NCBI GenBank assembly: GCA_012842395.1 | Contig: DUSX01000029.1 | Location: 109 to 64,108, forward strand | Length of the DNA stretch: 64,000 nt | Source: Bacillota bacterium | Lineage (GTDB): Bacteria; Bacillota; SHA-98; UBA4971 | Direction of reading: 5' to 3' | Position numbers and translations under genes: made by a program | Notes under the pieces: model-generated | The model's input: only the letters and a program-made list of their open reading frames with translations | The model's database searches: none | What the model was told of the DNA's origin: nothing | Shown here: positions 21,456 to 63,172 of the stretch, in pieces | How positions within the stretch are numbered: the stretch's first letter is position 1 | Layout of the letters: each line of letters begins with the position of its first letter

Positions 21456-21660
21456 AAGTATGTCGTCAAGAGTCCGCGCTACTTTTCGGCAGAGTGGTCC
21501 TGCTCAGGGTTGCCGGTGTTGCCCTCCGGGGACGGCGCGCTTGCGGCGCGCCTCGTTCGAATTCGGCGCTTAGGACGGCCGAATTCTCCACGCCCCGTCG
21601 TGCAAGCACCGGCAACCCCGCGCCGTCAAGAAGTGAGACGAGAACTTGTGGCGCTATGCT
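21456..21660 (+). repeat. Intergenic hairpin repeat element, copy A (forward orientation, complete)
   Basis: Left end TAAGTATGTCGTCAAGAGTCCGCGC. IR-L AGGGTTGCCGGTG, an about 85-nt GC-rich palindromic core (two GAATTC arms), then IR-R CACCGGCAACCC. Right end CAAGAAGTGAGACGAGAACTTGTGGCGC. Confidence 0.8.
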
Positions 21661-22433
21661 TAGCCGGTGTTCATTCGGGCTCTCCGTCCACCTTTCCCCT
21701 TTTGCTCGACGATTCCCAGGTGGGCTGGGGGATGGGGTCGGGGTGGCCGTCAGGATCTCGCGCAACCCGAGTCGGAACGTGGGTCACCAGGGTAAGGTAG
21801 TGGCTCCCCTGAGGGGGCAGCCTGTCGACGGAAGCAGGCAGCGAGCCGTATGGGCTGGCTGCCTGCTTCCGTCCCTAGCCCGTCTACGCCACCCGCCTCA
21901 GCAGCATAAGGTTATCCGGTCTTCTCTCGCTTTCCGAACTCTCGGGTTGCCGGTGATTGGGTGAGGGGGTGTCGGAACCTGCCGCCTAGCCGGACGGGCT
22001 CGGTTATGGCCTGGCTAAGCGGGCGCCGCTCGGGGCGGCATCGCCGAGCGTAACACCGGCAACTCCGCGCAGTGGGTGTGCTTCGATGTGCCTCCTTGAA
22101 CCGATGAACCGATGTGCCTCGTTGGACCGGTGCTCCCTCACGGGGACCTGCAAAGTTGGCCCCGGCAGGCTGTCCATCGGCACGGTGGTGTCGGTGGGAA
22201 CGCGGTAGTGTGAACCTGAAGTGACAGGCGGCGTTCGTGTTGCCTGCAAGCCTGCGCTGTAGTACAATTGGCCTGTGCGTCTCCCACCGCCGGCGCATCT
22301 CGCGATTGCCGAGGACGGCGGTCGCGAGTGAAGGACTTGACGCCGCGCGCACGCTCTGGTGCTAGCGCGCAGGCAGCCCGCGGGCATTGGGGCGTGCGTT
22401 AAGTACCCATTAGGGCATGCGAGGCATCGGTAG

Positions 22434-24158
22434 ATGACAAGAAAGTCTCTCATCAGAGGGGCGGCGATCCTCGCCGCAGCGGGCTTGGCCAACAGGTTTC
22501 TGGGCGCGGTCTCCCGGATCGTCCTGCCCTCGCTCATCGGGGACGAGGGCGTCGGCTTGTACCAGATGGCTTATCCCGTTTACGGGGTGTTCCTGGTAGT
22601 CTCGACGGCAGGGGTGCCGGTGGCGGTATCGAAGCTCGTAGCTGAGCAGACAGCGAGGAACAACCCTGCGGGCGCCCTTAAGGTCCTGAAGGTCGCCACG
22701 GCGATCCTCTTTTTAACGGGCACGTTCTTCTCGGCAGCCCTCGCCCTGGGAGCGGGGCCGATCGCCAGGTACGTGGCGCGGGACGCCCGGGCGGCTCTTG
22801 CTATCGTAGCTGTGTCGCCGGCTGTGCTCATCCTGTCGGTAACGTCGGCGTTCCGCGGATACTTCCAAGGCATGCAAGAAATGGGGCCGAGCGCGCTCTC
22901 GCAAGTGAGCGAGCAGGTAGTGCGGGTCTCCGCCATGATCGGCCTCGCATGGCTCCTCTTGCCGCGGGGGGTTGAATTCTCGGCGGCGGGAGCGAACCTT
23001 GGCGCGGTGCTCGGCGGGGCCGCGGGTTTCCTAGTATTACTCGTTGCGTATTTCAGGCTTCAGCACGTGCCAGGGTCATGGAAGGTGTCATGGGCCCAGG
23101 TGAGGGCGGTCTTTGCAAGGAGCGGCAGGGAGGGTGGCGGGGCGAGACGTCGTGGCGATGGGGAAAGCCGCGGCCGCTCCGCGGCTGAGGACGGCGCACC
23201 GGGGGGCGGGGCGCGTGCCATCGAGGATTACATGGGCTCTACGCTGGCGCTCGTTCGTCGCATCTTCGACCTGTCGTTGCCGGTGGTGCTCGCCGCGGCG
23301 ATAATGCCGCTCATGCAGTTCCTCGATATAGCTATTGTGCCCATGCGTCTCGCCAGTGCGGGATTCTCACCCGACGAGGTCACGAGGCTTTTCGGGCGGC
23401 TAACGGGCATGGCGCAACCCCTCATGTACTTTCCGACGCTTGTCACGTCGGCGGTGGCGGCGAGCGCCGTGCCAGCGATCTCCGAAGCCCTGGCGCGACG
23501 CGACAGGAGCACGCTTTCGGCGAGAGCCGAGGAGGCCATCAGGCTAGGTTTCCTGTTTGCGCTTCCGTCCGCGGTAGGGCTCTTCGTGTTCGCCAAGGAG
23601 TTCTCGATCATGCTCAGGTGGCCTGCGGAAGTCGCTGTTCCGCTGCGCGCCCTTGCGTTTGGCACCGTATTCCTGGCGCTCCAGCAAGTCAGCTCAGGCA
23701 TTCTGCAGGGGCTCGGCGAGGTTACGGTGCCTGTGCGGAACCTGGCGAAGGGCGCGTTGGCGAAGCTGGTCGTGAGCCTCGTGCTCACCGGCATGCCTGC
23801 ATACGGCATCCGGGGCGCGGCATATGGCACTGTAGCCGCCTTTGCTGTGGCGGGGCTCCTTAACGTGGCGGCGCTCGTGCGGATGCTCGGCCTGAGCATT
23901 GACGTCATGAACACAGCAGTGAAACCGGTCTTGGGCGTCGCGGTGATGGCTTTGGTGGCAAGGGCGGCGTACGCAGGAGTGTATCGGGCAGTTGCCAGCA
24001 ACACCCTGGGCGCGCTTGCCGCTATAGTGGTGGCGGTCGCCGTGTACGGGCTGGCGCTGCTCGTCACGGGAGTCGTCGGCCGGCACGAACTTGAGGTTTT
24101 CCCCGGCGGGGGGAAGATCGCGAGCGTCCTTGAACGGCTTGGCCTCCTGCGTCGTTGA
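22434..24158 (+). CDS. MOP-superfamily flippase, SpoVB/YabM-like polysaccharide biosynthesis protein
   Basis: 574 aa with about 14 TM helices. N-terminus LIRGAAILAAAGLANRFLGAVSRIVL is typical of MurJ/SpoVB-type proteins. Position after spoVT matches yabM. Confidence 0.8.
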   Translation: MTRKSLIRGAAILAAAGLANRFLGAVSRIVLPSLIGDEGVGLYQMAYPVYGVFLVVSTAGVPVAVSKLVAEQTARNNPAGALKVLKVATAILFLTGTFFSAALALGAGPIARYVARDARAALAIVAVSPAVLILSVTSAFRGYFQGMQEMGPSALSQVSEQVVRVSAMIGLAWLLLPRGVEFSAAGANLGAVLGGAAGFLVLLVAYFRLQHVPGSWKVSWAQVRAVFARSGREGGGARRRGDGESRGRSAAEDGAPGGGARAIEDYMGSTLALVRRIFDLSLPVVLAAAIMPLMQFLDIAIVPMRLASAGFSPDEVTRLFGRLTGMAQPLMYFPTLVTSAVAASAVPAISEALARRDRSTLSARAEEAIRLGFLFALPSAVGLFVFAKEFSIMLRWPAEVAVPLRALAFGTVFLALQQVSSGILQGLGEVTVPVRNLAKGALAKLVVSLVLTGMPAYGIRGAAYGTVAAFAVAGLLNVAALVRMLGLSIDVMNTAVKPVLGVAVMALVARAAYAGVYRAVASNTLGALAAIVVAVAVYGLALLVTGVVGRHELEVFPGGGKIASVLERLGLLRR

Positions 24159-24183
24159 GTGTTGAGTACTGGGCTAGGGGAAG

Positions 24184-25062
24184 GTGCAAGAGATGGCGAC
24201 GAGGTGCAGGGACAACCAGGCGAAAACCGCGAACGATGCGACGGGCCGCTATTCGCTGGCCCCGCTCGTTGAAGTGATGCGAAGGCTCCGGGGTGAAGGC
24301 GGATGTCCCTGGGACCGCAAGCAAACTCACGAATCTCTCAGAACTTACGTAGTCGAGGAAGCCTACGAAGTGGTCCAGGCCATAGACGACCACGACGATG
24401 CGGAGCTGTGCGAGGAGCTAGGCGACCTGCTTCTCCAGGTAGCGTTCCACTCCCAGATCGCGAGCGAGGCCGGCAAGTTTGATGTGGGCGACGTCATCGA
24501 GGGAATCGTCAGCAAGCTCATCCGGCGTCACCCCCACGTGTTCGGCGATGTCGAGGCGAAGGACAGCGAGACTGTGCTGCGCAATTGGGAGCGGATAAAG
24601 CAAAAAGAGAGATCGGACGAAGCCGGCGAACCGGCGTCGGTCCTAGACAACGTCGCGGGTGCAATGCCCGCTCTCATGAGGGCGTTGAAGGTCCAGGCGA
24701 AAGCGTCGAGGGTGGGCTTTGACTGGCCGGATGTCTCCGGGGCGCTCGCAAAGGTCCGAGAAGAAATGCACGAGCTGGAGGAGGCACGAGAGGCGGGAGA
24801 CCAAGCGCGGATCGCCGAGGAGGTCGGCGATGTGCTTTTCGCCTTCGTGAACGTGGCCAGGTTCCTCAAGGTGGACCCGGAGATCGCTCTCGGGCGCACG
24901 GTGGACAAATTCATCACGCGGTTCAAGCACATCGAGGCGCGCGCAGGTGAGAGCAACCGCCGCATGGAGGACATGACCCTCGACGAGATGGACTCCTTGT
25001 GGGAGGAGGCCAAGAGCGTGTCGAGGAGCGGGGAGGAACGGCACAGCGCACGGAAGCCGTAG
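24184..25062 (+). CDS. mazG: Nucleoside triphosphate pyrophosphohydrolase MazG (YabN-like, MazG domains only)
   Basis: Tandem MazG motifs (WDRKQTHESLRTYVVEEAYEV...ELGDLLLQVAFHSQIA; second EEVGDVLFAFVNVARFLKVDPE). Confidence 0.85.
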   Translation: MQEMATRCRDNQAKTANDATGRYSLAPLVEVMRRLRGEGGCPWDRKQTHESLRTYVVEEAYEVVQAIDDHDDAELCEELGDLLLQVAFHSQIASEAGKFDVGDVIEGIVSKLIRRHPHVFGDVEAKDSETVLRNWERIKQKERSDEAGEPASVLDNVAGAMPALMRALKVQAKASRVGFDWPDVSGALAKVREEMHELEEAREAGDQARIAEEVGDVLFAFVNVARFLKVDPEIALGRTVDKFITRFKHIEARAGESNRRMEDMTLDEMDSLWEEAKSVSRSGEERHSARKP

Positions 25063-25103
25063 GCCTTTTGAGTGCCCAACCACGCCGCATGACGGATAGG
25101 GTG

Positions 25104-25141
25104 AGACCTGCCTGGTTTGTCCCAAGGCAGGTCTTTTTTTG
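25104..25141 (+). terminator. Rho-independent terminator after mazG
   Basis: GACCTGCCT...AGGCAGGTC stem followed by TTTTTTT. Confidence 0.7.
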
Positions 25142-25241
25142 TGGGGACTGGCATAACCATTCATCAGGAAAGGCCCACGACCGGGCAACCGCCGGAAATG
25201 CGGCAACGAGTTGCGCACCTTCGCACGAGGAGGGAAGAGGG

Positions 25242-25532
25242 ATGATTGACGAGAAGAGGCGGACAGCCGTGTCGTCGCAGCACAGGGTGACGGTTACTGA
25301 ACGCGAGACGATAGCGGTTGACGGCGTCAACAACGTGGAGAGCTTCGATGACCAGGAAGTAGTCCTTGAGACGACAGCGGGGATGTTGATGTTGCACGGG
25401 AGGGATTTCCACATCAAGCAACTCAACCTCGATGAGGGAAACCTGACCATCGAAGGGTATCTTGCAGGCATGGAGTATGCCGAGGAAGTCGGCAAGAAGG
25501 CCAGGAGCTTCTTGGGGCGGCTGCTGAAGTGA
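25242..25532 (+). CDS. yabP: Sporulation protein YabP
   Basis: VTVTERETIAVDGVNNVESFDDQEVVLETTAGMLMLHGRDFHIKQLNLDEGNLTIEG matches the YabP family. Confidence 0.85.
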   Translation: MIDEKRRTAVSSQHRVTVTERETIAVDGVNNVESFDDQEVVLETTAGMLMLHGRDFHIKQLNLDEGNLTIEGYLAGMEYAEEVGKKARSFLGRLLK

Positions 25533-25948: not shown

Positions 25949-26055
25949 GAAGGGATTGGCCGGGAAGACGTCGAATAGCAAACAACGGCCCAATAGGGGG
26001 CGCCGCTGCATTCGGAGACAGGAGCCCGGGGCCCGGAGGTTGCAGAAAGGCGAAG

Positions 26056-26427: not shown

Positions 26428-26522
26428 GCCGGCGGGCTCGCGTAGCCGGGCAGCGAAGGTCTCAGATGCCGTGTCCGCTGGTCTTCTGGCTGAGCCTAGG
26501 GCCTGGCGCGCTTGGGTTTGGA

Positions 26523-26552
26523 TTGACACAACCGCACCGTACGAAGTATAAT
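26523..26552 (+). promoter_or_regulatory. Sigma-A-type promoter upstream of yabR
   Basis: TTGACA, 18-nt spacer, TATAAT, about 60 nt upstream of the yabR start. GAGGGGGAG RBS follows. Confidence 0.55.
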
Positions 26553-26614
26553 GAACTGAAATTCGGGCTCTGTTTCTTGCTGACCACGACCACACGAGGG
26601 GGAGTTCACCAGGT

Positions 26615-28998: not shown

Positions 28999-29261
28999 GA
29001 ATCATGATATTCGACCCAGCGGAAGGATATCCTTGCAAGCACGTAGAAAAATCGCAGGAAAAGCCGAAGGGCGCTCACCCGCCAGCTGAAATGGCGCCGG
29101 GCTGAAAGGCGTGTCTACTAATACGCTGCCATGAGGCCGTTGAACTTCCCAGGTAATTGCCAGTGCGCACGACCCCAGCGACGGCTCTGTGGGCTTCAAC
29201 TGGGCTGGGGCGACATCATATTTGGGACGAGACGACACATTGTGGGAGAGTTCAACGCTCT

Positions 29262-29486
29262 CTGCCGCAAGTTTTCGTCTCCTTTCTTGCCGACGCCAGC
29301 GTTGCTGGTGCTTGCGCGACGGGGCGTGGAGGATTTGGCTATCTCGCGCGCCCGATTCGAACGAGGCGCGCCGCAAGCACGCCGTCCCCGGAGGGCGGCG
29401 CCGGCAACCCTGCGGAAAACCCCCGGGCTGACTGGGGAAGATTCCCGCGCTGAAAAGTGGCGCGAACTTTCGGCGATCTACATATT
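29262..29486 (-). repeat. Intergenic hairpin repeat element, copy B (reverse orientation, complete)
   Basis: Reverse complement of the copy A architecture: CAAGTTTTCGTCTCC...GTTGCTGGTGCTTG core CCGGCAACCC...CGCGAACTTTCGGCGATCTACATATT. Confidence 0.8.
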
Positions 29487-29504
29487 AGGAGGATATTGCC
29501 AAGC

Positions 29505-30714: not shown

Positions 30715-30715
30715 T

Positions 30716-32908
30716 TTGGGGAGTGAACGGGGTCTGAGAAACTCAGCTCAGCAGCTCGAGAAAGCCATTACCGTAGGTCTTGAGGTAGCGGGCTCCCGGA
30801 GGTGGGAGGTCGAGGACTCCCTTGATGAACTCGACCGGCTCGCGGAGACGGCGGGTGCCGAGGTGGTCGGGAGGGTGGTCCAGAGGCGGGCGTCGCCTGA
30901 CCCCGCTACGTATATAGGCGAGGGGAAAGCCCGGGAGATCGCGGCCCTTGCGATCGTGGCCCACGCTGACCTGGTTATCTTCGATGACGAACTCAGCCCC
31001 GCCCAACAACGCAATCTCGAGGAGATCATAGGGATCAAGGTCATCGACCGCACCTGGCTCATCCTCGACATCTTCGCCTCAAGGGCCGCGAGCAAGGAAG
31101 GCAAGATCCAGGTCGAGCTCGCCCAGCTTTCTTACTTACTCCCGCGGCTCACAGGCAAGGGCGTCGAGCTTTCGAGGCTCGGCGGCGGCATCGGCACCCG
31201 TGGGCCTGGGGAGACGAAGCTCGAGACAGACAGGCGCCGGATTAGAAAGCGCATCGCGGTCCTCCGCGGCGAGCTCGCCGAGATAGCGGCGCGGCGAGGG
31301 CTGCAGCGTTCCCGCCGCAAGGAAGCGGGGATACCCGTGGTTTCGCTGGTCGGCTACACCAATGCCGGCAAGTCCACGCTCTTCAACGCCCTCACCGAGT
31401 CGCAGGTCCTCGCGGAGGACAAACTTTTCGCCACGTTGGACCCGACGATACGCAGGTGTCGCCTGCCGGGAGGCGGGGTGGTGCTCCTTGCAGACACCGT
31501 GGGCTTCATTCGTAAGCTGCCCCACGATCTCGTGGCGGCATTCCGCGCCACCCTGGAGGAAGTCGCCGAAGCCGATGTCATCTGTCACGTGGTGGACGCG
31601 AGTCACCCCGGCAAGGACGAGCAGTGTGCGGCGGTGAACGCGGTCCTCGCCGACCTCGGCCTTCAGGACAAGCCGATGGTCACCGTCCTCAACAAGATAG
31701 ACCTCGTCGAAGGGGACATCAAGAGAGAACGCTTGCGTGTGGAGCACCCCGGTGCGGTGCTGATCTCCGCCGCCGAGCGATGGGGCCTGTCTGACCTGCT
31801 TCGAGCGATCGAGGACACGCTTCCTCCGACGGGACGGCGAGGTGGCCCGCAAGCCGAGCCCGGTTCCCGCGCGGCAGTAAGCGGGGCGCATGCCTCAGGC
31901 GCAACTGAGCTACGCGGCGGTTCACGCGCCGTTTCCATCTCCATCGGCGATGTTGCTCTGGCGGCTCCCGTAGTGCTTGCGCCCATGGCGGGGGTGACCG
32001 ACCTCGCCTACCGGGTGCTCGCGAAGGAGATGGGGTGCGCTCTGGTATACACGGAAATGATCTCCGACAAGGCCCTCATCTTCCACAACGAGCGGACCTT
32101 CGAGCTCGTGCGGATCTCGGACCTCGAAAGACCCGTGGCGGTTCAGCTGTTCGGGAGCGATCCCGAGAGCATGGCGAGCGCAGCCGCCATCGTTCGGGAC
32201 CGGGTCCATCCCGACATCATCGACATCAACATGGGATGCCCGACGCCGAAGATTGTCAGGAACGGCGAAGGGGCCGCGCTCATGCGGGACGTGCCCCTCG
32301 CACAGGATATCGTCGCGGCTGTAGTCGGGGTGGCGGGGGTTCCAGTGACGGTGAAGATGAGAAAGGGCTGGGACAGGGAGCACGTCAACGCCGTCGAACT
32401 CGCGCAGGCGGTGGAGGCTGCCGGCGCGGCCGCCGTTGCGGTGCACGGTCGCACCCGTGACCAGTTCTATTCCGGCGAGGCTGACTGGAGCATCATCAAG
32501 GATGTGAAGGAGGCCGTCGGAATCCCCGTTATCGGCAACGGGGACGTCCGGTCGGGGGAGGACGCCGCGCGTATGCTCGAGGAGACGGGCTGCGACGCGG
32601 TTATGATAGGCAGGGCGGCGCTCGGGAATCCTTGGATATTCAGGGAAGTCGCTATCTATCTCGCGACAGGCCGGAAGGTGCCGCCGCCTTCGCTTGCTGA
32701 GCGAGCCGCCATGGCCATCCGCCACCTTGACATGATGATCGAGCTTTTCGGGGAGAAAAGCGCCGTTCTTCAGATGAGGAAACACGCAGCGTGGTACCTC
32801 CGCGGCATCCCCGGCGCGGCCCAGGCTCGAGTGCGGATAAACGCTGCGAAGACCAGGGCTGAGATGGTGGAAGCCGTGACCTCGGTCCTTGGTGACCCCT
32901 GGAGCTAA
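30716..32908 (+). CDS. Apparent in-frame fusion of GTPase HflX (N-terminal ~390 aa) and tRNA-dihydrouridine synthase Dus (C-terminal ~330 aa)
   Basis: Single 730-aa ORF. HflX part: N-domain plus G-domain ([28 protein letters not shown]). After a Gly/Arg/Ala/Ser linker, Dus part: [32 protein letters not shown]...[12 protein letters not shown]...[10 protein letters not shown]. Confidence 0.75.
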
Positions 32909-33131
32909 TTGAGGTTGCATCGGTCTCTGCCCCATTCCCGTCGGTTGCCGGGTTGCCGGCGTTGCACTCTGGGACGCCGCCACGATCAGGGCGCGCTTCG
33001 CCAAAACCCGAGTTTGCGTTTTCGGGAGCATCCTGCTAGAATGTGAGTGTGCACAATAATGTAAACATGGCTCCAGCGGGAATGCCGTCGGTGCGTGCTC
33101 GCGCTGGACGCGCACCGAAGGCAGACAGGGG

Positions 33132-48489: not shown

Positions 48490-49745
48490 CTACCGAATGG
48501 ATTAGGAGAACATACAGGGTCCTCCTCGTCCTTCTGGTCTGCTCGCTGGCGGCCGCCGTGCCCGCGGCCGCCGGCTCCTCCCCGAGCGAGGGGGCCCGCC
48601 CGACGGTGGTCCTGGTCATCCTTGACGGCTGCGCTGCTTACTCATTGGACTTGCTGCCATCCGAGGCATATCTCAGGCAGGCGGCGGCGGAAGGGTTCTA
48701 CCAGCACGTGCGGACCGTGTTCCCGTCTTCCACGGCAGCCGGACATGCGGCCATACTGACCGGCAAGTGGCCCGATGAGAACGGGGTCACAGGCAAACAG
48801 TTCATGGGGAGCGACGGGACGCTGAATGGGTTCAGCTCGCCTCAATTGCTGGAAGCTCCCACAGTGATCGAACGGGCGGCGAAGGCTGGCCTGCGCACAG
48901 CATTCATTTCCGGGAAGGAAGGAGTCAGGTCGCTGTTCGGCGAAGATGCAGACCTCGCGGTGAGCCCGGCGTCAGTGCCATCATGGGTGCTCGAAGAGGT
49001 CGGGCCTCCTCCGGACGAGTCCACGCAATATGAGGACTACTGCGGCTGGTATGAAAAGCTCGACAGATGGGTGATCGATGTAGCGGGTGCTTTCGTGAAA
49101 GAGGCAGGGCCTGGCGCATTCATCGTGCTTAACCTCGCCGGACCGGATAAGGTGGGACACAGGTTTGGGCCCGTTCCTGCGCCTGAGACCACTCAATGCC
49201 TCATCTCAGTAGGAGAGGCTCTCCGCGGTCTGACAGGAGTCCTCGAGGAGGTCGCGAGGGAGGACTGGGCTGTAGTGGTCACCGCAGACCACGGGATGAC
49301 CAGCGTGAGCAAGGCCATTGTGCCGTCAGAGCTGTTCGGAGGCATTGCCGACGATGGCTTGGCATACAGCCTTGACGGAGGTGTCTTGTACGCGTGGCCG
49401 ACGCCGACAACAGAGGAAGCTGTGGTAAGCGCGCTCAAGGGCGCTGAAGGCGTAGCGGAGGTCATCACGACGTCAGACGAAAGACGGGCGCTTCTTCACG
49501 CGTCGCATCCGAGGAGTGCCCCGATCATCGCGATAGCACGCCAAGGTTACATGTTCACTGAGTCCAGCGCGTTCATGGAGTATACGAAGGGCAGCCACGG
49601 AACGCTTCTTGATACAGACGTAATGGTCCCATTAATGGTCTACGGACCCCAGGCGGTCAAGACCGGCATTGGTATCAGCGAGATCGGAGACACAGTGGAG
49701 ATAGCGGGGGTACTCGCCGAGCTCTTGGGCGGCCTGGGGGACTGA
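48486..49745 (+). CDS. Secreted alkaline-phosphatase-superfamily enzyme, nucleotide pyrophosphatase/phosphodiesterase-like
   Basis: Signal peptide. VVLVILDGCAAYSL...TVFPSSTAAGHAAILTGKWPDENGV is a metal/nucleophile-site pattern of type I phosphodiesterase/NPP-like AlkP-fold enzymes. GPDKVGHRFG further supports this. Confidence 0.75.
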   Translation: MTTEWIRRTYRVLLVLLVCSLAAAVPAAAGSSPSEGARPTVVLVILDGCAAYSLDLLPSEAYLRQAAAEGFYQHVRTVFPSSTAAGHAAILTGKWPDENGVTGKQFMGSDGTLNGFSSPQLLEAPTVIERAAKAGLRTAFISGKEGVRSLFGEDADLAVSPASVPSWVLEEVGPPPDESTQYEDYCGWYEKLDRWVIDVAGAFVKEAGPGAFIVLNLAGPDKVGHRFGPVPAPETTQCLISVGEALRGLTGVLEEVAREDWAVVVTADHGMTSVSKAIVPSELFGGIADDGLAYSLDGGVLYAWPTPTTEEAVVSALKGAEGVAEVITTSDERRALLHASHPRSAPIIAIARQGYMFTESSAFMEYTKGSHGTLLDTDVMVPLMVYGPQAVKTGIGISEIGDTVEIAGVLAELLGGLGD

Positions 49746-49748
49746 GCA

Positions 49749-49876
49749 CATCGCCAGGAGTGCGCGCTACTCTTGGGCGCGAGGGTCCTGCCTGGGGCTA
49801 TCGGGCTTGCCCTCCGGGGACGGCGTGCTTGTTGCGCGCCTCGTTCGAATCTGACGCGCAAGATAGCCAGATACCC
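49749..49876 (+). repeat. Intergenic hairpin repeat element, copy C (forward, right half truncated)
   Basis: ATCGCCAGGAGTGCGCGCTACTCTTGGGCG...GCCCTCCGGGGACGGCGTGCTTGTTGCGCGCCTCGTTCGAATCTGACGCGCAAGATAGCCAGAT. Starts at the stop codon of the AlkP-like gene. Confidence 0.7.
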
Positions 49877-49976
49877 CGCATATCTTCCGGCTTTGCCCGG
49901 CCTTGACTTCGGTCCCGGCGTGTGTTACTATTCTACGTGCGAGAGATGTGGCACCACATAGCCCATAGGTTTGAGT

Positions 49977-50091: not shown

Positions 50092-50267
50092 GCTTGTGCC
50101 TCCTCGGGGCGCAATCATCGCGTAGCCCTGACCTATCCATGCCTCATGAAAGCCGACCCCGTCGCCGCAAAGCCTGGCGATCTACCGGGCCTGCCCGGTG
50201 TCGCGGAGACGCCTCTTGGTTGGAACTTAGTTCGGCGCACGCAGCGACTGGCGCCCCCGCGCCTTGC

Positions 50268-51119
50268 TTAGTCGCGCCGTCCCCGCTCCACCGGCTCCCG
50301 TCGCTCGAACGGCACCGGCACATACTGAACAGAGGGGCGCCGCTGCACGGGTTGCGGGTAGAGCTCCATCAAACGGTAGACCTCGTAGGGCATCTCGTTG
50401 CTGACTTGGAGCCCCATGCGCCGCAGCGCATCGCAAGTGATCGGGTAATCGTGTGTCCAGCGCCCTTCCGTGAGCGTCTTCGCGATCTCGCGGGCTTTGT
50501 CCTCGGGCAGCTTCGCGGCCAGGATCTCGTATACGCTTTCATAGACCTGCACCATGGCTTTGGCGGCCATGTCCCCCAGGATTAGCGTCGTGTCGCTTAC
50601 GGAGTTCTTGTCCTTCTGCTCTATGGCCCGCAGAATGGATACCGCCGGGTAGTTCCCGAGTTGCGGGTCGACCGGGCCGAGCACGGCGTTCTCGTCCATG
50701 ACGATCTCGTCTGCGGCTAGAGCCAGGAGCGTCCCGCCAGACATCGCGTAGTGCGGCACGAACACAGTTACTTTCGCCTTGTGGCCCGCGATCGCGTGGG
50801 CGATCTGCTCCGCGGCGAGCACGAGACCGCCCGGTGTGTGGAGGATGATATCTATCGGGACATCGTCTGGCGTGAGGCGGATCGCTCTTAGCACCTGTTC
50901 CGAATCCTCGATGTCGATGTGGCGCGAGATCGGGATGCCGAGGAAGCTGATTGCCTCCATGCGGTGGATCATGGCTATGACCCGCGATCTCCTCTTGCGT
51001 GAGAGGGAGTTGAGGATGTGCAGCCTTGCGAGCTCGATCCTTCGCCTTCCGAAGAGGGGCGAGAGGAGGCTCCACACCAGGAGAAGGATCCAGAAGAGGT
51101 TGAAGAACGTGTCGGACAT
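50268..51119 (-). CDS. Membrane-anchored ClpP/S49-class serine protease (SDH/'serine dehydrogenase proteinase' family)
   Basis: N-terminal TM (FFNLFWILLLVWSLL) then ILHTPGGLVLAAEQIAHAI...VPHYAMSGGTLLALAADEIVMDENAVLGPVDPQLG (ClpP-like fold). Start at ATG with GGAGAGAG RBS; the upstream part of ORF 50268..51344 is discarded. Confidence 0.7.
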   Translation of the reverse strand: MSDTFFNLFWILLLVWSLLSPLFGRRRIELARLHILNSLSRKRRSRVIAMIHRMEAISFLGIPISRHIDIEDSEQVLRAIRLTPDDVPIDIILHTPGGLVLAAEQIAHAIAGHKAKVTVFVPHYAMSGGTLLALAADEIVMDENAVLGPVDPQLGNYPAVSILRAIEQKDKNSVSDTTLILGDMAAKAMVQVYESVYEILAAKLPEDKAREIAKTLTEGRWTHDYPITCDALRRMGLQVSNEMPYEVYRLMELYPQPVQRRPSVQYVPVPFERREPVERGRRD

Positions 51120-51440
51120 ATCCACGCTCTCTCCTGTCTGCGGTTGCGGCCTTGTTGGGCGCGAGGTCAGGAACGCTTGCGACTCTTGGGAGCGGTTGAC
51201 GGTCGCTGCGCGGTGGGTGTCAAAACCCGGCCACCCGTCCGGCCCGGCGGGCCGCGCATCCCGCATCCTGTGAGGGTGGCCTGCCGGGGCGCCGTTCCCG
51301 AGGGCAACACCGGCAAACCTAGGCTCGCCCTGACGTTGACGCACTTGCCTTGCTTGCCCCTTGAGTTAAGTTTCCGTCCGGGTGGCATGAATATGCGGCC
51401 CCCTTAGGCTGCCGACTCTGGGACTGAGTGCATCGTCGGC

Positions 51441-51634
51441 AGTTCGCGCTGCTCTGCGGCGCGAGCGTCCCCTGCCTAAGGCTACCTATCGGCCTTGCGC
51501 TCCGCGGCGATGGCGTGCTCTCGGCTCGCATCGTTCGGATCCGGCACACGAGATAGCCGAATTCCGGGCGCCCCGTCGTGCAGGGGCCGGCGGCAACCCG
51601 AACGCCGCCCAAAGGAGGAGACGAGGACTCACGG
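51441..51634 (+). repeat. Intergenic hairpin repeat element, copy D (forward, diverged); an IR-only fragment lies at about 51296-51335
   Basis: AGTTCGCGCTGCTCTGCGGCG...core...CAGGGGCCGGCGGCAACCC GAACGCCGCCCAAAGGAGGAGACGAGGACTCACGG. Upstream fragment GAGGGCAACACCGGCAAACCTAGG resembles the right end of copy G. Confidence 0.65.
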
Positions 51635-51818
51635 AGCGATACTTGATACTTAACTTAGGATGTAAGGCGGCGCGCTGTGCCCGACTCCACTCTTCAAGCC
51701 ATCCCTCGCCTCGTCTCATGCTCTGGGAGATCGTGGTTTCCAGGCGCTTGTGTCTCGGAAACTCGTGTAGTAGAATTGCATGGGGGAATGAGCCACAAGC
51801 TGATGGAGGGACGAACGG

Positions 51819-53670: not shown

Positions 53671-53886
53671 CCTAAAGTATGGCGCCATGAGTTTTCGTCT
53701 CCTTTTCTTGACGGCGTGGGCTTGCCGGTGCTTGCACGACGCGGCGGGGAGGATTCGGCGGTGCCGCGCCGCGCCGAATTCGAACGGGGCGCACCGCAAG
53801 CGCGCCGTCGCCGGAGGGCAAGGCCGATAGCCTTAGGCAGGACCGCCTGGCCGAAAAGCGGCGCGAACTTTTGGCGACATACTTAG
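53671..53886 (-). repeat. Intergenic hairpin repeat element, copy E (reverse orientation, complete)
   Basis: CCTAAAGTATGGCGCCATGAGTTTTCGTCTCC...CTTGCCGGTGCTTG core ...GGCGCGAACTTTTGGCGACATACTTAG. Lies between pdxT and glyA. Confidence 0.8.
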
Positions 53887-56899: not shown

Positions 56900-57112
56900 T
56901 AAGTATGTCGCCAAGAGTTCGCGCCACTTCTCGGCGGAGGGTTCCTCCCCAGGGTTGCCGGCCTTGCCCTCCGGGGACGGCGCGTTTCCGGCGCGCCTCG
57001 TTCGAATTCGGCGCGGCGCGAGACCGCCGAATCCTCCCCGCCGCGTCGTGCAAGCACCGGCAAGCCCACGCTGTCAAGAAGGGAAACGAACACTTATGGC
57101 GCCATATTCAGG
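56900..57112 (+). repeat. Intergenic hairpin repeat element, copy F (forward orientation, complete)
   Basis: CTAAGTATGTCGCCAAGAGTTCGCGCC...CAGGGTTGCCGGCCTTG core CAAGCACCGGCAAGCCC...CAAGAAGGGAAACGAACACTTATGGCGCCAT. Lies upstream of the por operon. Confidence 0.8.
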
Positions 57113-58396: not shown

Positions 58397-59571
58397 TGAA
58401 GAAAGTGGCGATTACCGGAAACGAAGCTGTATCGCAGGCGATGCGTCAGATCAACCCTGACGTGGTGGCTGCCTACCCGATAACTCCGCAAACCGAGATC
58501 GTCCAGATCTTCTCCACTTTCGTGGCAGACGGGGATGTTGATACGGAGTTCGTCACCGTGGAGAGCGAGCACTCGGCCATGAGCGCGACGATCGGCGCGT
58601 CGGCGGCGGGTGCAAGGGCGATGACCGCTACCTCGTCGCAAGGGTTCGCTCTCATGTGGGAGATGCTGTATATCGCAGCCGGTTTGAGGCTTCCCATCGT
58701 GATGCCGGTCGTGAACAGGGCGTTGTCAGCGCCCATCAACATCCACTGCGACCATAGCGACACAATGGGAGCGCGCGATTCCGGGTGGATCCAGCTCTAT
58801 TCCGAGAACGCGCAGGAAGCTTACGACAACCTGATTCAGGCGGTACGGATCGCGGAGCATCCGGATGTTCAGCTTCCCACGATGGTCTGTATGGACGGCT
58901 TCATCGTAAGCCACGGCATGGAGAACGCTGAGCTTCTCGACGACGGCGTGGTGCGCAGCTTCATCGGCCAGCGAACCCCCAAGTACTCGCTTCTCGACGT
59001 GGACAACCCTGCCACATTCGGCGGGCTGGACTTCGCTGACTGGTACTTCGAGCACCGGCGTCAGCTCGCTGAGGCCCAGACGCACGTAAAAGACGTGGTG
59101 CTGGACGTGGCGAGGGAGTTCGCCAAGATATCCGGCAGGAGCTACGGTCTCTTCGAGGCATACAGGCTGGACGACGCCGAGCTGGCTGTGGTCGTGCTGA
59201 ACTCTGCGGCAGGAACCGCGAAGGTGGTCGTTGACGACCTGAGAGATAAGGGTTTGAAGGCAGGCTTACTGAAGATAAGGCTCTTCAGGCCGTTCCCGCA
59301 CGAGGAGATAGTGGCGGCGCTTGCAGGCAAGAAGGCCATCGCTGTTCTCGACAGGGCAGACGGCCTCTCCACGATGGGTGGGCCCGTGTTCGTGGACGTG
59401 CGATCCGCCATGTATGACGCGCCCGGGCCGAAGATGGTGAACTACATCTACGGCCTCGGCGGCAGGGACATCGACACCGAGCAGATAGCCGGGGTATTCT
59501 GGGATCTTGCCAAGATCGCCGAGACGGGCAAGATCGCGTCGCCCGTGACTTACCTCGGGGTCAGGGAATAG
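58396..59571 (+). CDS. porA: Pyruvate:ferredoxin oxidoreductase alpha subunit
   Basis: KVAITGNEAVSQAMRQINPDVVAAYPITPQTEIV is the PorA N-terminus. ATG overlaps the porD stop. Confidence 0.9.
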   Translation: MKKVAITGNEAVSQAMRQINPDVVAAYPITPQTEIVQIFSTFVADGDVDTEFVTVESEHSAMSATIGASAAGARAMTATSSQGFALMWEMLYIAAGLRLPIVMPVVNRALSAPINIHCDHSDTMGARDSGWIQLYSENAQEAYDNLIQAVRIAEHPDVQLPTMVCMDGFIVSHGMENAELLDDGVVRSFIGQRTPKYSLLDVDNPATFGGLDFADWYFEHRRQLAEAQTHVKDVVLDVAREFAKISGRSYGLFEAYRLDDAELAVVVLNSAAGTAKVVVDDLRDKGLKAGLLKIRLFRPFPHEEIVAALAGKKAIAVLDRADGLSTMGGPVFVDVRSAMYDAPGPKMVNYIYGLGGRDIDTEQIAGVFWDLAKIAETGKIASPVTYLGVRE

Positions 59572-59583
59572 GAGGCGGCAGGA

Positions 59584-60507
59584 ATGGCAAACTTGAGGGA
59601 GCTTACGAAGAAGGAAGAACTCCTGTGCGGCGGGCATCGTGCTTGCGCGGGTTGCGCCGCTCCGATAGCCGTGAGGCAGGCGTTGAAAGCCGTTGACACC
59701 CCTGTTGTTGTCGGGTGCGCCACCGGGTGCCTCGAAGTGACGACGACGATATATCCCTTCACGTCGTGGAGGGTTCCGTTCATCCACAACGCGTTCGAAA
59801 ACGCCGCCGCCACCATCAGCGGGGTGGAAGCAGCGTATAGGGCGCTCAAGAAGAAGGGCAAGATAACGCAGGATATCCAGTTCATCGCCTTCGGCGGCGA
59901 CGGCGGCACTTACGACATTGGGTTCCAGTCGCTGTCCGGGGCGATGGAGCGCGGGCATGACATGGTCTACATTTGCTACGACAACGAGGCCTACATGAAC
60001 ACGGGCATACAGAGGTCGAGCGCGACTCCCAAGGGTGCATCCACGACCACAAGCCCCGCGGGGAAGGTCATTCCCGGGAAGACGCAGTTCCGCAAGGACC
60101 TGACCGCGGTCATGGCGGCCCACAACATCCCGTACGTTGCGCAGGCGGTGCCGAGTCACTGGAACGACTTCGTCACCAAGGTCCAAAAGGCGCTTGCGGT
60201 GAAGGGCCCGGCGTTCATCAACGTCCTTGCGCCGTGCAGGCTCGGGTGGCAGTTCGATCCGTCCGAGACCATCGAGATCATGCGGGGCGCCGTGGAGACA
60301 TGCTTCTGGCCGTTGTACGAGGTCGAAAACGGCACGTGGCGCATCACCCACAAGCCCAGGGAGAAGAAGCCCGTGCGCGGATGGCTTGAGAAGCAGGGAC
60401 GATTCCGCCATCTCTTCCGGCCGGAGAACGAGCACATCATCGAGGAGATCCAGGCCGACATCGACCGCAACTGGGAGGCCCTTCTGGCGCGGGCGGGCAT
60501 GGCCTAA
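59584..60507 (+). CDS. porB: Pyruvate:ferredoxin oxidoreductase beta subunit (TPP-binding)
   Basis: CAGCAAPIAVRQ (Cys cluster) and GGDGGTYDIGFQSL (TPP motif GDG-X-N region). Confidence 0.9.
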   Translation: MANLRELTKKEELLCGGHRACAGCAAPIAVRQALKAVDTPVVVGCATGCLEVTTTIYPFTSWRVPFIHNAFENAAATISGVEAAYRALKKKGKITQDIQFIAFGGDGGTYDIGFQSLSGAMERGHDMVYICYDNEAYMNTGIQRSSATPKGASTTTSPAGKVIPGKTQFRKDLTAVMAAHNIPYVAQAVPSHWNDFVTKVQKALAVKGPAFINVLAPCRLGWQFDPSETIEIMRGAVETCFWPLYEVENGTWRITHKPREKKPVRGWLEKQGRFRHLFRPENEHIIEEIQADIDRNWEALLARAGMA

Positions 60508-60628
60508 GTTCCTGTGCCAGCCAGCGCAACAGCCGAGTGGCGGCGAGGCACGGGCGTGCGTTCTGGCAACGGACCCTCGCGCTCGCGCCCCGGTCGCGCC
60601 GAGCGGGCGCGGTCAAGATGGTCAAGGG

Positions 60629-61005
60629 TTGTCTCGCGGGCGTCCGGGTGTTATAATCGGATATACAAACGCGCAACGCGAATTCGGAACAGGCAAGAGA
60701 TGATCCTAAAGACGGTCCGAGCCAAGGCGATGACGAGGACAAGTAGGCGTCAGGCCTCCCGCTGAAGAGAGCCGGGTCTGGTGTGAACCGGCGCGCAGGC
60801 CCGCCGAATCCACCTCAGAGCCGCGGGTTGAAAGGCGCGCCGCATGGGCGCCGAGTATGCCCTGCCGGGTTTGCCCGTTAACGCTTCTTGAGAGGGTCGA
60901 GCGGGCGTGGCGTGGTCGCCTACGCCTCCGGCCAATCGGGGTGGCAACGCGGGAGCACAAGCCTCTCGTCCCCATGGGTTTGTCCCAGGGGGCGAGGGGC
61001 TTTTT
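60629..61005 (+). promoter_or_regulatory. Promoter (TTGTCT-17-TATAAT) plus T-box-like leader with terminator, upstream of serS
   Basis: -35/-10 pair at 60629-60657. AATCGGGGTGGCAACGCGGG at about 60934-60953 matches the T-box consensus AAUUAGGGUGGNACCGCGG at 16 of 20 positions. It is followed by a GC stem and TTTTT at about 60961-61005. Confidence 0.5.
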
Positions 61006-61297
61006 ACATCCGCCGTGCGCGGTGTCATCGCGTTCCCGGGCCTTCGAAGGCCGTGACCAGCGCTAGGGCGACCAACGCGAGGTTGACGCGGCCCGCAGCA
61101 GCACGCAGCGTCGCCGCACGGCACGCCGCGTCGGGCAACGCACGGGGTCGGGCCTGGCGGAGGGGAAGCGTGTAAGCGGGAGCACGCGGCGCGGCCTCGC
61201 GCCTGACGGCGTGCGCGGCTGTGAGCAGTGGGAAAGCAGCGGGAACAGGAACAGCAGACTAGTGGATTGGTAGCGGATAGACAACGGAGGGATGAAC

Positions 61298-62578
61298 ATG
61301 CTGGACATCAAGCTCATACGACAAAACCCTGAGATCGTGCGGGACGCCCTCGCTCGGCGCGGGGAAGACGACGCCGTTCTCGACGAGGTGCTTGCCGTAG
61401 ACGAGGAAAGGCGCAAGCTCATTTACGAGGTCGAGCAGCTGAAGAAGCGTCGGAACGAGGTTTCCGACGAAATCGCCCGGGTCAAGAAGAGCGGGGGGGA
61501 CGCTACCGACGCCATCCTGGAGATGCGCGACGTGTCCGCCAAGATCAAGGAGATGGATGACTCGGTGAGGGCGCTGGATGAAAAGCTCACGTCGCTCCTT
61601 CTCGCGATCCCTAACATCCCGCACTCGTCGGTCCCGACCGGCAAGGACGAGTCAGAGAACGTCGAGATCCGCCGGTGGGGCACACCTAGGAAGTTCGACT
61701 TCGAGCCCAAGCCCCACTGGGAGCTCGGCGTTGACCTCGGCATTCTTGATTTCGAGCGCGCCGCCAAGATAACCGGCGCGAGGTTCACCGTGTTCCGTGG
61801 AGCGGGCGCGCGCATGGTCCGGGCGCTCATTGCGTTCATGATCGACCTCCACACCAAAGAGCACGGCTACACCGAGGTTTACCCGCCGTTTCTTGTGAAC
61901 CGCGAGAGCATGATAGGGACGGGCCAACTCCCGAAGTTCGCCGAGGACATGTTCCGCTGCGAGGGCACTGATTACTACTTGATCCCCACGGCCGAGGTGC
62001 CTGTGACGAACCTCTACCGGGGCGAGATCCTCGAGGCGAGCGAGCTTCCCATATACCACGTGGCCTACACGGCGTGCTTCCGCGCGGAGGCGGGGTCCGC
62101 CGGACGAGACACTCGGGGCCTTGTGAGGCAGCATGAGTTCGACAAGGTTGAGCTCGTGAAGTTCGTAAGGCCTGAAACGTCCTACGACGAGCTCGAGAAG
62201 CTCGTACACGACGCTGAGGATGTCCTGAAGCGGCTTGAGCTGCCATACCGGGTCGTCATGATGTGTACGGGCGACGTCGGCTTCGCAGCCGCGAAGAAAT
62301 ATGATCCGGAGGTCTGGATGCCGAGTTACGGACGGTACGTGGAGATCTCGTCGTGCAGCAACTTCGAGGCCTTCCAGGCGAGACGTGCGGACATCAAGTT
62401 CCGTCCCGCCCCGGGCGCCAAGCCCGAGTATGTGCACACGCTGAACGGGTCTGGGCTCGCGGTGGGCCGCACCTTTGCCGCCATCCTGGAAAACTACCAG
62501 GAGGCGGACGGATCGGTGATCGTCCCGAAGGCCCTTCGACCGTACATGGACGGCCTCGAACGCATCGCGAAGGGATAG
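61298..62578 (+). CDS. serS: Seryl-tRNA synthetase
   Basis: [22 protein letters not shown] (N-terminal coiled-coil arm) plus class II motifs ([43 protein letters not shown]). Confidence 0.95.
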
Positions 62579-62663
62579 AAAGAGGGTTCGCGTCGGGCAC
62601 GTGCCCGTCTGCGCCGCGCGCTGCGCTGGCTGGCGGGCTCGGTGCCGCGCGCCGGCGTGCTCC

Positions 62664-62693
62664 TTGCCCTGGGAAGGCCGTGCGTGGTATAAT
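62664..62693 (+). promoter_or_regulatory. Promoter for tRNA-Ser (TTGCCC-18-TGgTATAAT, extended -10)
   Basis: Consensus-like extended -10, about 45 nt upstream of the tRNA 5' end. Confidence 0.5.
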
Positions 62694-62739
62694 CGTCGTG
62701 TCGGGAGAGGCCTTTCGTCCATCTCCCAGCAGGGCCTGC

Positions 62740-62831
62740 GGAGGAGTGCCCGAGCTGGCTTAAGGGAGCGGTCTTGAAAATCGCCAGGGTCCTCTGGGCC
62801 CTCGTGGGTTCGAATCCCACCTCCTCCGCCA
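62740..62831 (+). tRNA. tRNA-Ser: tRNA-Ser (anticodon UGA), long variable arm
   Basis: Acceptor stem GGAGGAG/CTCCTCC. Anticodon stem-loop GCGGT-cTTGAAAa-ATCGC (anticodon TGA). Extended variable arm, T-loop GGTTCGAATCC, encoded CCA. Confidence 0.9.
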
Positions 62832-63005
62832 CTATTTATGTACGTGATGCTATTCGCGTTCGCGATAACACCATGTGTCGCGCGCCCCACGCATTGGCGT
62901 CACATCGCGTCACATCTGGTGTACCCCGCCGGTCCACGGTCGCCCCTTGACGCACGTGCCTCACCGTCAGCATAGCCTCCAGGGGGCCGCAACGCTGTTT
63001 GCGCC

Positions 63006-63172
63006 CAAGTATGTCGCCAAAAGTCCGCACTGTTTTCCGGCGGAGGGGGGCCTGCCCAGGGTTGCCGGTGCTTGCACGACGGGGCGTGGAGAATTTGGCT
63101 ATCTCGCGCGCCAAATTCGAACGAGGCGCGCCGCAAGCGCGCCGTCCCCGCAGCGCAACACCGGCAACCTAG
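63006..63172 (+). repeat. Intergenic hairpin repeat element, copy G: forward left end, core in opposite orientation, alternative right end
   Basis: AAGTATGTCGCCAAAAGTCCGCAC...CAGGGTTGCCGGTGCTTG is followed by a core that aligns with the copy B/E orientation (CACGACGGGGCGTGGAGAATTTGGCTATCTCGCGCGCCAAATTCGAACGAGGCGCGCCGCAAGCGCGCCGTCCCCG). It ends with CAACACCGGCAACCTAGGG. Confidence 0.7.

What the first reader, a model, noticed from the sequence alone, without database searches (positions are those of the whole stretch)
21456..63172. Family of ~200-bp hairpin-forming intergenic repeats (seven or more copies, both orientations) bounded by a 12-bp inverted repeat
Seven related copies lie strictly in intergenic DNA: 21456-21660(+), 29262-29486(-), 49749-49876(+, truncated), 51441-51634(+, diverged), 53671-53886(-), 56900-57112(+) and 63006-63172(+). 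Complete copies share a left end TAAGTATGTCGCCAAGAGTYCGCGC, then IR-L (A)GGGTTGCCGGTG, then a GC-rich roughly 85-nt imperfectly palindromic core (CCCTCCGGGGACGGCGCGCTTGCGGCGCGCCTCGTTCGAATTCGG...CCGAATTCTCCACGCCCCGTCGTG). IR-R CACCGGCAACCC follows, then a right end CAAGAAGKGARACGARAACTTRTGGCGCCAT. The whole unit can fold into a long, roughly 120-nt hairpin. The organisation resembles REPIN or MITE-like elements but I cannot match it to a family I know. Copy density of about one per 9 kb in a housekeeping region suggests an abundant genome-wide family, possibly mobilised in trans (RAYT-like) or transcribed as structured RNA.
Basis: seen in the sequence. Interest (0 to 1): 0.75.

Follow-up and report, generated by a model that had tools for sequence, protein, structure and literature searches.

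The report
Hairpin-shaped miniature transposon (MITE) family
The repeats are real: they are about 205-bp non-coding "miniature transposons" that have jumped into CTAG sites between genes of an uncultured, GC-rich spore-forming bacterium from biogas reactors, which makes them a new family of an already well-known kind of selfish DNA.

Summary
All seven copies exist at nearly the stated coordinates. A profile built from them finds 143 hits (68 full length; the window's own seven included) across the window, bioreactor metagenomes and at least four other uncultured Bacillota species.

The interpretation needs refining. The 12-bp inverted repeat is an internal stem, not the boundary. The true element runs AGTAkrTCGCC…GGCGCCATACT, about 205 bp, and is flanked by C-TA…TA-G.

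Syntenic loci from a sister species show empty sites that hold a single C-TR-G: CTAG, C-TG-G and TG. A nested insertion and an off-target copy (T-GT…GT-A) also show a 2-bp direct duplication. Copies are never inside genes, lie in either orientation and in every type of spacer, and differ in presence between species. About 15% of element ends sit exactly on a gene's stop codon.

There is no Rfam match, no G·U versus A·C strand bias, and almost no compensatory change. Old orthologous copies decay.

The best explanation is a MITE family with IS630/Tc1-mariner-type target behaviour (CTAG target, TA duplication), mobilised in trans. No transposase was found in about 0.75 Mb sampled, so the partner is inferred only. 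The RAYT/REPIN and structured-RNA readings are not supported. It is a new member of a known kind, of modest interest.

The parts
21457..21660 (+). Full type-1 copy (204 bp). It is flanked by C-TA (21454-21456) and TA-G (21661-21663). The internal 12-bp stem is at 21507-21518 / 21607-21618.
   Evidence: It lies downstream of spoVT. The copy is present in all same-species assemblies L001-L006 and L154. It is absent at the orthologous site in MAG107 (L075).
29249..29488 (-). Full-length variant copy. It carries a 22-nt insertion in the left arm and a variant or degenerate right end (…GGCAGAGAGCGTTGAAC).
   Evidence: It lies between the divergent MFS and GDT1-family genes.
49745..49878 (+). Truncated copy: left arm plus the 5' half of the core. 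Its first base completes the TGA stop codon (49743-49745) of the phosphodiesterase gene.
   Evidence: The sister species L231 has CTAG (stop codon TAG) at this exact position, which is an empty site.
51427..51643 (+). Diverged full copy flanked by TG (51425-51426) and TG (51644-51645).
   Evidence: L231 has a single TG and no element here.
53675..53883 (-). Full copy between pdxT and glyA. It is flanked by C-TA(A) and TA-G.
   Evidence: It is absent in L231 and L233; no type-1 copy was detected in the L232 spacer, which holds a type-2-like fragment.
56902..57108 (+). Full copy between the PAS/HD gene and the POR gene. The flanks are C-TA … CA-G.
   Evidence: L231 reads C-TG-G at this position with nothing inserted, and the bases on both sides align. 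This is the cleanest empty site.
63008..63172 (.). Partial copy: one arm plus the core, with the core inverted relative to that arm and the other arm missing.
   Evidence: (D5, I2)
21915..22071 (+). Type-2 relative. It has the same 12-bp stem (21944-21955 / 22054-22065) but a different interior. Its 3' part is the reverse complement of the type-1 5' core.
51156..51335 (+). Type-2 relative. It is shared with L231 and absent in L232 and L233.
8397..8499 (-). Degenerate type-2 fragment in the spacer between the histidine kinase gene and the next gene.
32944..33010 (-). Short type-2-like fragment in an intergenic spacer.
50246..50271 (+). Decayed remnant of an element end (…CTTGCTTAG). The junction is shared with L231 and L232, so it marks an old orthologous insertion. 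It overlaps the TAA stop codon of the SDH-protease gene on the minus strand.

Best explanation
The repeats are a family of non-autonomous DNA transposons (MITEs) of about 205 bp.

Anatomy. Each unit has imperfect terminal inverted repeats (5'-AGTAkrTCGCCAnAAgTTCGCGC … AACTTATGGCGCCATACT-3'). The arms pair with each other, and a GC-rich branched core is closed by the 12-bp stem GGGTTGCCGGTG/CACCGGCAACCC. The units encode nothing.

Insertion (shown). They insert at the palindromic target C-TA-G and duplicate the central dinucleotide. A filled site therefore reads C-TA-[AGTA…TACT]-TA-G. Because CTAG often contains a TAG stop codon, many copies sit exactly on a gene's stop codon, which becomes TAA or TGA with no change to the protein.

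Mobilisation (inferred). This target choice and the 2-bp duplication are the signature of IS630/Tc1-mariner DDE transposases. The element is therefore most likely cut and pasted in trans by such a transposase, which would bind the roughly 24-bp ends.

Core (inferred). The hairpin-forming interior is probably passenger sequence inherited from the founder copy. It has been shuffled between subfamilies (1a, 1b, type 2).

History. The family is older than the species splits in this lineage and still looks recently active in at least one species.
For: Family size:
- 143 non-overlapping profile hits, 68 of them full length, in bioreactor metagenome contigs and four other MAG species. Many contigs end inside a copy.

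Sharp boundaries:
- In 53 full copies the flanks read C (50/53) T A | AGTA…TACT | T A G (48/53). Nothing is conserved beyond that.

Empty sites in the syntenic sister species L231 (PdxT 94% identical):
- c56900: window CC-TA-[element]-CA-GG versus L231 CC-TG-GG, with both flanks aligned.
- c49749: L231 has CTAG.
- c51441: TG…TG in the window versus a single TG in L231.
- c53671: absent in L231 and L233.

Other evidence for a 2-bp direct duplication:
- A nested insertion of a full copy into the C-TC-G of another copy's core, giving CC|…|TC.
- A copy with T-GT…GT-A flanks, and two copies with TG/TG.

Independent insertions:
- They lie at different positions of the same spacer in different species.

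Distribution:
- No copy is inside a gene. Copies occur in either orientation and in tandem, convergent and divergent spacers.
- Of 142 element ends, 35 make an in-frame stop codon after at least 80 open codons, and 22 after at least 200.

Age:
- Copies at different loci of one MAG are 98% identical. Window copies are 66-86% identical to each other.

Literature:
- Bacterial MITEs typically have TIRs, TA at the termini, a TSD and long stem-loops. RUP is linked to IS630-Spn1 (PMC2229807).
- The IS630 family duplicates TA. IS630 prefers TA within CTAG (PMC2170065 and its reference to Tenzen & Ohtsubo 1991).
Against: - No autonomous element or transposase of any kind was found in the ORFs and gaps examined in about 0.75 Mb of fetched loci; in the window only genes flanking copies were scanned. 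Assignment to IS630 therefore rests on target and TSD behaviour only.
- IS5-family subgroups with 2-4-bp duplications at TA-containing palindromes are not excluded. This point rests on my own knowledge of ISfinder, not on a test here.
- Only 31 of 53 copies keep TA/TA. The cleanest empty sites come from one sister species at roughly 85-90% nucleotide identity, and two junctions carry small extra indels.
- The interior is as well conserved as the ends (0.88 vs 0.84-0.87 mean column identity). That is unusual if only the ends matter for transposition.
Confidence: 0.6

Rival explanations
1. REPIN/REP-type or IS200/IS605-derived palindromic element. It would be mobilised as single-stranded DNA by a Y1 (HUH) transposase such as a RAYT.
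For: - The whole unit is a long imperfect palindrome that folds stably on both strands.
- Copy density is high and copies are confined to intergenic DNA.
- One stem pair covaries: C-G in 41 sequences, T-A in 36.
Against: - A 2-bp direct target duplication and palindromic CTAG target are seen at empty/filled and nested sites. Y1 transposases insert next to a specific tetra- or pentanucleotide without duplication (established knowledge).
- The ends are true TIRs, not asymmetric LE/RE hairpins.
- No Y1 transposase turned up among the ORFs scanned near copies (multi-copy clusters and gap ORFs).
- There is no G·T versus A·C strand bias, which single-strand use would predict.
Confidence: 0.05
2. A multi-copy structured non-coding RNA or cis-regulatory RNA element. 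Examples would be a leader, a terminator/stabiliser or a ribozyme-like three-way junction, with the repeats kept because the RNA fold is functional.
For: - The predicted fold is a branched three-way junction, not a plain hairpin, with z-scores of -3.3 to -4.5.
- The core is well conserved across species.
- In the raw count, G·T exceeds A·C within the inner core.
Against: - No Rfam family matches, even at E<=10.
- Both orientations occur in tandem spacers (11 sense, 22 antisense). Copies also sit between divergent genes (10) and convergent genes (12).
- Once positions fixed by subfamily are set aside, G·T vs A·C is 301 vs 274, and only 3 of 82 pairs show compensatory change.
- A large subfamily has lost one hairpin of the junction.
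- Orthologous old copies are decayed, and presence differs between sister species.
- No promoter- or terminator-like signal lies inside the units.
Confidence: 0.05
3. It is a MITE, but mobilised by a non-IS630 DDE transposase. One candidate is an IS5-family IS427/ISL2-type element, which also targets short TA-containing palindromes with 2-4-bp duplications. Alternatively the family is now extinct and immobile.
For: - No partner IS was found.
- A Pseudomonas MITE attributed to the IS5 family inserts at CTAG/YTAA (PMC3189936).
- Window copies are only 66-86% identical to each other.
Against: - The duplication is 2 bp, not 4. The consensus flanks CTA…TAG cannot be read as a direct 3- or 4-bp repeat.
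- Copies 98% identical at different loci of one MAG argue for recent activity.
Confidence: 0.2

Closest known systems
RUP (repeat unit of pneumococcus) and other IS630-associated bacterial MITEs
   Same: - Non-coding, intergenic and present in many copies.
- Terminal inverted repeats and insertion at TA with TA duplication.
- Forms a long stem-loop.
- Thought to be moved in trans by an IS630-family transposase (PMC2229807).
   Different: - Twice the size (about 205 vs 107 bp), GC-rich, with a branched core.
- No sequence similarity.
- Strong CTAG preference rather than any TA.
- No cognate IS identified here.
- The host is an uncultured high-GC Bacillota lineage.
IS630 (Shigella sonnei) / ISY100, of the IS630-Tc1-mariner superfamily
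   Same: The target is TA, preferentially within 5'-CTAG-3', and TA is duplicated. Ends of about 24 bp are sufficient for transposition (PMC2170065).
   Different: Those are autonomous elements of about 0.95-1.2 kb that encode a transposase. Here there is no ORF. Similarity of the ends to any IS630-family member could not be tested.
Correia elements / NEMIS of Neisseria
   Same: MITEs of 100-155 bp with TIRs, TA duplication, hairpin-forming transcripts, subfamilies that differ by internal blocks, and an unknown transposase (PMC2229807).
   Different: The sequence, host and size are unrelated. No IHF site or promoter-like motifs were detected here.
REP/REPIN-RAYT systems and BIMEs
   Same: Abundant intergenic palindromic repeats with a mosaic, modular make-up.
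   Different: REPINs have no TIR/TSD and depend on a Y1 transposase. Here a 2-bp TSD and a CTAG target are seen, and no RAYT was found.

Membership tests
Bacterial MITE (non-autonomous cut-and-paste DNA transposon) | Small (<~300 bp) and non-coding | tested here: met
   Units are 204-217 bp. Four of six frames contain stop codons; two are open over the 204 nt, and no ORF call or protein match supports coding.
Bacterial MITE (non-autonomous cut-and-paste DNA transposon) | Terminal inverted repeats | tested here: met
   The ends are AGTAkrTCGCC… and …GGCGCCATACT, conserved in 53 or more full copies.
Bacterial MITE (non-autonomous cut-and-paste DNA transposon) | Target-site duplication, seen by comparing filled and empty sites | tested here: met
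   The duplication is 2 bp. Empty sites in L231 read C-TG-G, CTAG and TG. A nested insertion shows CC|…|TC in a C-TC-G target. One copy has GT…GT.
Bacterial MITE (non-autonomous cut-and-paste DNA transposon) | Many dispersed copies whose presence or absence differs between relatives | tested here: met
   143 hits. Copy content differs among the window, L075, L231, L232 and L233.
Bacterial MITE (non-autonomous cut-and-paste DNA transposon) | An autonomous partner IS with the same ends | tested here: inconclusive
   No solo-end pairs and no transposase ORFs were found in about 0.75 Mb of loci. Whole genomes could not be scanned.
IS630/Tc1-mariner-derived element | Insertion into TA, with TA duplicated | tested here: met
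   TA/TA flanks occur in 31 of 53 copies. The variants are mostly single transitions. See also the empty sites listed above.
IS630/Tc1-mariner-derived element | CTAG context preference (as for IS630 itself) | tested here: met
   C at -3 in 50/53 copies and G at +3 in 48/53. Both bases are present in the empty sites and are therefore target-derived. 22 ends lie on real stop codons.
IS630/Tc1-mariner-derived element | Ends matching those of an IS630-family IS, and a DDE transposase with paired HTH domains in the same genome | not testable with these tools
No such gene lies in the sampled loci.
REPIN / RAYT system | No target duplication, with REP hairpins associated with and flanking a Y1 transposase gene | tested here: not met
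   A 2-bp TSD is present. No Y1 transposase lies adjacent to any copy.
IS200/IS605-derived palindromic element (PATE) | Asymmetric LE/RE hairpins, insertion 3' of a fixed tetra/pentanucleotide, no TSD | tested here: not met
   The ends are symmetric TIRs, the target is the palindrome CTAG, and there is a TSD.
Curated structured RNA family (Rfam 15) | Match to a covariance model; fixed orientation relative to genes; covariation with G·U tolerance on one strand | tested here: not met
   No match at E<=10. Orientation is mixed. G·T vs A·C is 301 vs 274, and 3 of 82 pairs are compensatory.

The most novel reading that the evidence does not exclude
The GC-rich three-way-junction core is shared, partly in inverted form, by at least three subfamilies with different arms, and it is as conserved as the transposase-binding ends. 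On the most novel reading it is not passenger DNA but a functional module. It might be a folded DNA or RNA structure the element needs for its own propagation, for example by recruiting a host factor or guiding excision or repair. Alternatively it might have been co-opted by the host at stop-codon-proximal sites. That would make this a new variant of MITE with an obligatory structured cargo.
Probability: 0.08. Interest if true: 0.55.

Novelty: new member of a known kind. Interest (0 to 1): 0.3.

Why it matters
- **Annotation.** The family gives a clean annotation for a repeat that breaks metagenome assemblies of a poorly known, uncultured high-GC Bacillota lineage from anaerobic digesters. Many contigs end inside a copy.
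- **Target behaviour.** It is a neat natural example of CTAG-specific insertion. In a GC-rich genome such sites are mostly TAG stop codons, so the element lands on stop codons and rewrites TAG to TAA or TGA without harming the protein.
- **Practical use.** The copies are useful strain and species markers.
- **Limits.** It does not open a new mechanism. MITEs with TA duplication are textbook.

Tried and rejected
1. **Loose genome scan.** The genome-contig scan used a 15-nt pattern that was too loose. It still revealed copies in three other MAG species.
2. **Search for the parent IS.** All of these found only housekeeping genes:
   - solo-end fuzzy search
   - ORFs next to solo ends
   - clustering of 298 ORFs to find multi-copy genes, followed by Pfam
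   - ORFs in gene-caller gaps
3. **Viral contigs.** Scans with the core and with both ends gave 0 hits.
4. **Rfam.** Nothing at gathering or E<=10 thresholds on the repeats and on the type-2 units, which superficially resemble a cobalamin riboswitch (GCCACTGG).
5. **RNAalifold.** On 88 sequences including partial copies it gave an uninformative structure. I used the consensus-sequence fold and counted pairs instead.
6. **Apparent strand bias.** The raw G·T excess in the inner core (289 vs 46) disappeared once consensus non-Watson-Crick positions and subfamily-fixed positions were set aside.
7. **Longer duplications.** 4-bp (CTAA/TTAG) and 3-bp TSD models were rejected, because the left and right flanks are reverse complements, not direct repeats.
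8. **'Core-only' copies.** These turned out to be full elements with diverged arms (subfamily 1b), not a separately mobile core.
9. **Literature.** A full-text search for the sequence motifs found only unrelated primers.

Full report
**Setting.** The window has 62.8% G+C. It carries housekeeping and sporulation genes of a Bacillota organism: mfd, spoVT, a spoVB-like gene, coaX, pdxST, glyA, serS and POR. The same species, at 99-100% identity and including the repeat after spoVT, occurs in several ENA biogas and bioreactor assemblies. No cultured relative was identified.

**Checking the observation.**
- The repeat finder, MAFFT and an nhmmer profile all recover the seven listed segments as one family.
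- The 12-mer GGGTTGCCGGTG is strongly over-represented: 14 hits against 0.58 expected.
- Single copies fold into about -105 kcal/mol branched hairpins on either strand, with z-scores of -3.3 to -4.5.
- The fold has an outer stem made by the two arms. The 12-bp stem closes the core. Inside the core is a three-way junction of two adjacent hairpins.
- All copies lie between genes.
The coordinates are accurate to a few bases.

**Extent of the family.**
- A first genome scan was too loose but still found copies in three other MAG species.
- The profile finds 143 non-overlapping hits there, 68 of them full length, and many contigs end inside a copy.
- No copy occurs in viral contigs.
- The family has subfamilies with diverged arms. 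There is also a related 'type 2' family that keeps the 12-bp stem while part of its core is the reverse complement of the type-1 core.
- Four type-2 copies or fragments lie in the window. Two of these (8397-8499, 32944-33010) were not listed; 8397-8499 lies outside the stated range.

**Boundaries and insertion chemistry.**

*Flank consensus.* Aligning 53 full copies on their ends gives a sharp logo: C (50/53) T A | AGTA…TACT | T A G (48/53). Nothing is conserved further out.

*Empty sites.* Whether C-TA/TA-G belongs to the element or to the target was settled with empty sites. Using PdxT homologues, I fetched syntenic loci from three related species: L231 (94% identical PdxT), L232 and L233.
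- At c56900 the window reads …GTGCC-C-TA-[element]-CA-G-GCG…, while L231 reads …GCGCC-C-TG-G-GTG… with both flanks aligned. The insertion is therefore the element plus two bases, and the outer C and G are target-derived.
- At c49749, L231 has CTAG, whose TAG is the stop codon of the phosphodiesterase gene. In the window the stop is TGA, built from the duplicated dinucleotide plus the first base of the element.
- At c51441 the window has TG…TG around the element and L231 has a single TG.
- c53671 is absent from L231 and L233.

*Further support for a 2-bp duplication.*
- In L178 a full copy sits inside the C-TC-G of another copy's core, flanked by CC|…|TC.
- One copy with intact ends has T-GT…GT-A flanks, and two have TG/TG.

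*Conclusion.* The 2-bp duplication inside a CTAG-like palindrome is directly supported. 3- or 4-bp models fail because the flanks are mutual reverse complements, not direct repeats.

**Mobility.**
- Presence differs at orthologous spacers. MAG107 (L075) has a copy between mfd and spoVT where the window has none, and it lacks the full copy after spoVT.
- L232 carries independent copies at other positions of the same spacers.
- One insertion next to the SDH-protease stop codon is shared by three species and is decayed in two of them. The family therefore predates these splits, and copies are not maintained by the host.
- In one MAG, copies at different loci are 98% identical. Window copies are 66-86% identical to each other.

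**Distribution relative to genes.**
- No copy is inside a gene.
- In tandem spacers 11 copies are sense and 22 antisense. Twelve lie between convergent genes and ten between divergent genes.
- Of 142 element ends, 35 make an in-frame stop after at least 80 open codons, and 22 after at least 200.
- This is what CTAG targeting predicts in a GC-rich genome, where TAG stop codons are a major source of tolerated CTAG sites.

**Testing the RNA reading.**
- There is no Rfam match even at E<=10.
- Orientation relative to genes is not fixed.
- No promoter- or terminator-like signal lies inside the units.
- In pairs with a Watson-Crick consensus, G·T and A·C mismatches are balanced: 301 vs 274 cells, 31 vs 29 pairs. 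Only 3 of 82 pairs show compensatory change in three or more sequences. The clearest covarying pair is C-G 41 / T-A 36.
- A large subfamily has lost one hairpin of the junction.
- Together with the decay of old copies, this argues against a conserved RNA function.

**Mechanism.**
- Shown: the elements are non-coding, have TIRs, insert at C-TA-G with a 2-bp duplication, and have moved independently in related species.
- Inferred: they are mobilised in trans by an IS630/Tc1-mariner-type DDE transposase. IS630-family elements duplicate TA, and IS630 itself prefers TA within CTAG (PMC2170065 and its citation of Tenzen & Ohtsubo 1991). Bacterial MITEs such as RUP are attributed to IS630-Spn1 on the same grounds (PMC2229807).
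- Not shown: the partner. No transposase was found in about 0.75 Mb sampled.
- An IS5-family subgroup with short duplications remains a minority alternative (compare).
- The RAYT/REPIN and IS200/IS605 ideas conflict with the TSD, the TIRs and the palindromic target.

**Verdict.** This is a genuine, abundant, previously undescribed MITE family, with a sister family, in an uncultured Bacillota lineage. It is a new member of a known kind. The mildly unusual points are its size, the conserved branched core shared between subfamilies, and the frequent landing on stop codons. Confidence is about 0.85 that it is a MITE and about 0.6 that the partner is of IS630 type.

Noticed in passing
window 21915-22071, 51156-51335, 8397-8499, 32944-33010; L184 3898-4066, L167 290-449, L186 2278-2440, L134 351-517, L231 4583-4749: A second repeat family ('type 2'). 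It starts CTAAGTGGGGGTGCAGAAATGC…, keeps the 12-bp stem GGGTTGCCGGTG and has a different interior (…GGTGTCAAAATCCGGCCACTGG…). Its 3' part is the reverse complement of the type-1 5' core. There is no Rfam match.
   Followed up: partly
L187 425-1879 (between type-1 fragments at 1950-2022 and 1-64): A group II intron-type reverse transcriptase/maturase ORF (484 aa, judged by reading the translated sequence; no Pfam scan was run on it). It sits within about 1.9 kb of DNA that splits a type-1 copy between model positions 77 and 78. The hairpin element has served as an intron target.
   Followed up: no
window 49743-49745 and 50268-50270; 35 of 142 element ends in the fetched loci: Stop codons of flanking genes are formed by the duplicated TA/TG plus the first A of the element. 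The sister species has TAG within CTAG at the empty site. Insertion rewrites the stop codon without changing the protein.
   Followed up: yes
window 21827-21873: A separate near-perfect 13-bp-arm palindrome (GGAAGCAGGCAGC…GCTGCCTGCTTCC) lies in the long spoVT-spoVB spacer. It is conserved in same-species assemblies, unrelated to the MITE, and matched only microRNA models by chance.
   Followed up: partly
window ~22329 versus L154 8063-8157 and L001 4514-4605: Strain-level indel. Some assemblies of the same species carry an extra 90-93-bp GC-rich segment in the spoVT-spoVB spacer that the window lacks. It is not a member of either repeat family.
   Followed up: partly
window 30716-32908 (+): A single 730-aa ORF combines HflX-type GTPase domains (GTP-bdg_N/M, MMR_HSR1) with a complete dihydrouridine synthase (Dus) domain. 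This is either an unusual fusion or two genes joined by a lost stop codon.
   Followed up: no
L231 (JBLNCC010000058.1, GCA_050260395.1): This MAG is named 'Betaproteobacteria bacterium' by its source. Yet it is syntenic with the Bacillota window over 12 kb (PdxT 94% identical) and shares the repeat families. It is probably mislabelled.
   Followed up: no
window 22240-22275 and L075 ~6400: A conserved promoter-like block (TGTTGCCTGC…CTGTAGTACAATTGGC) lies upstream of the spoVB-like gene. It is the only part of this spacer conserved between the window and MAG107.
   Followed up: no
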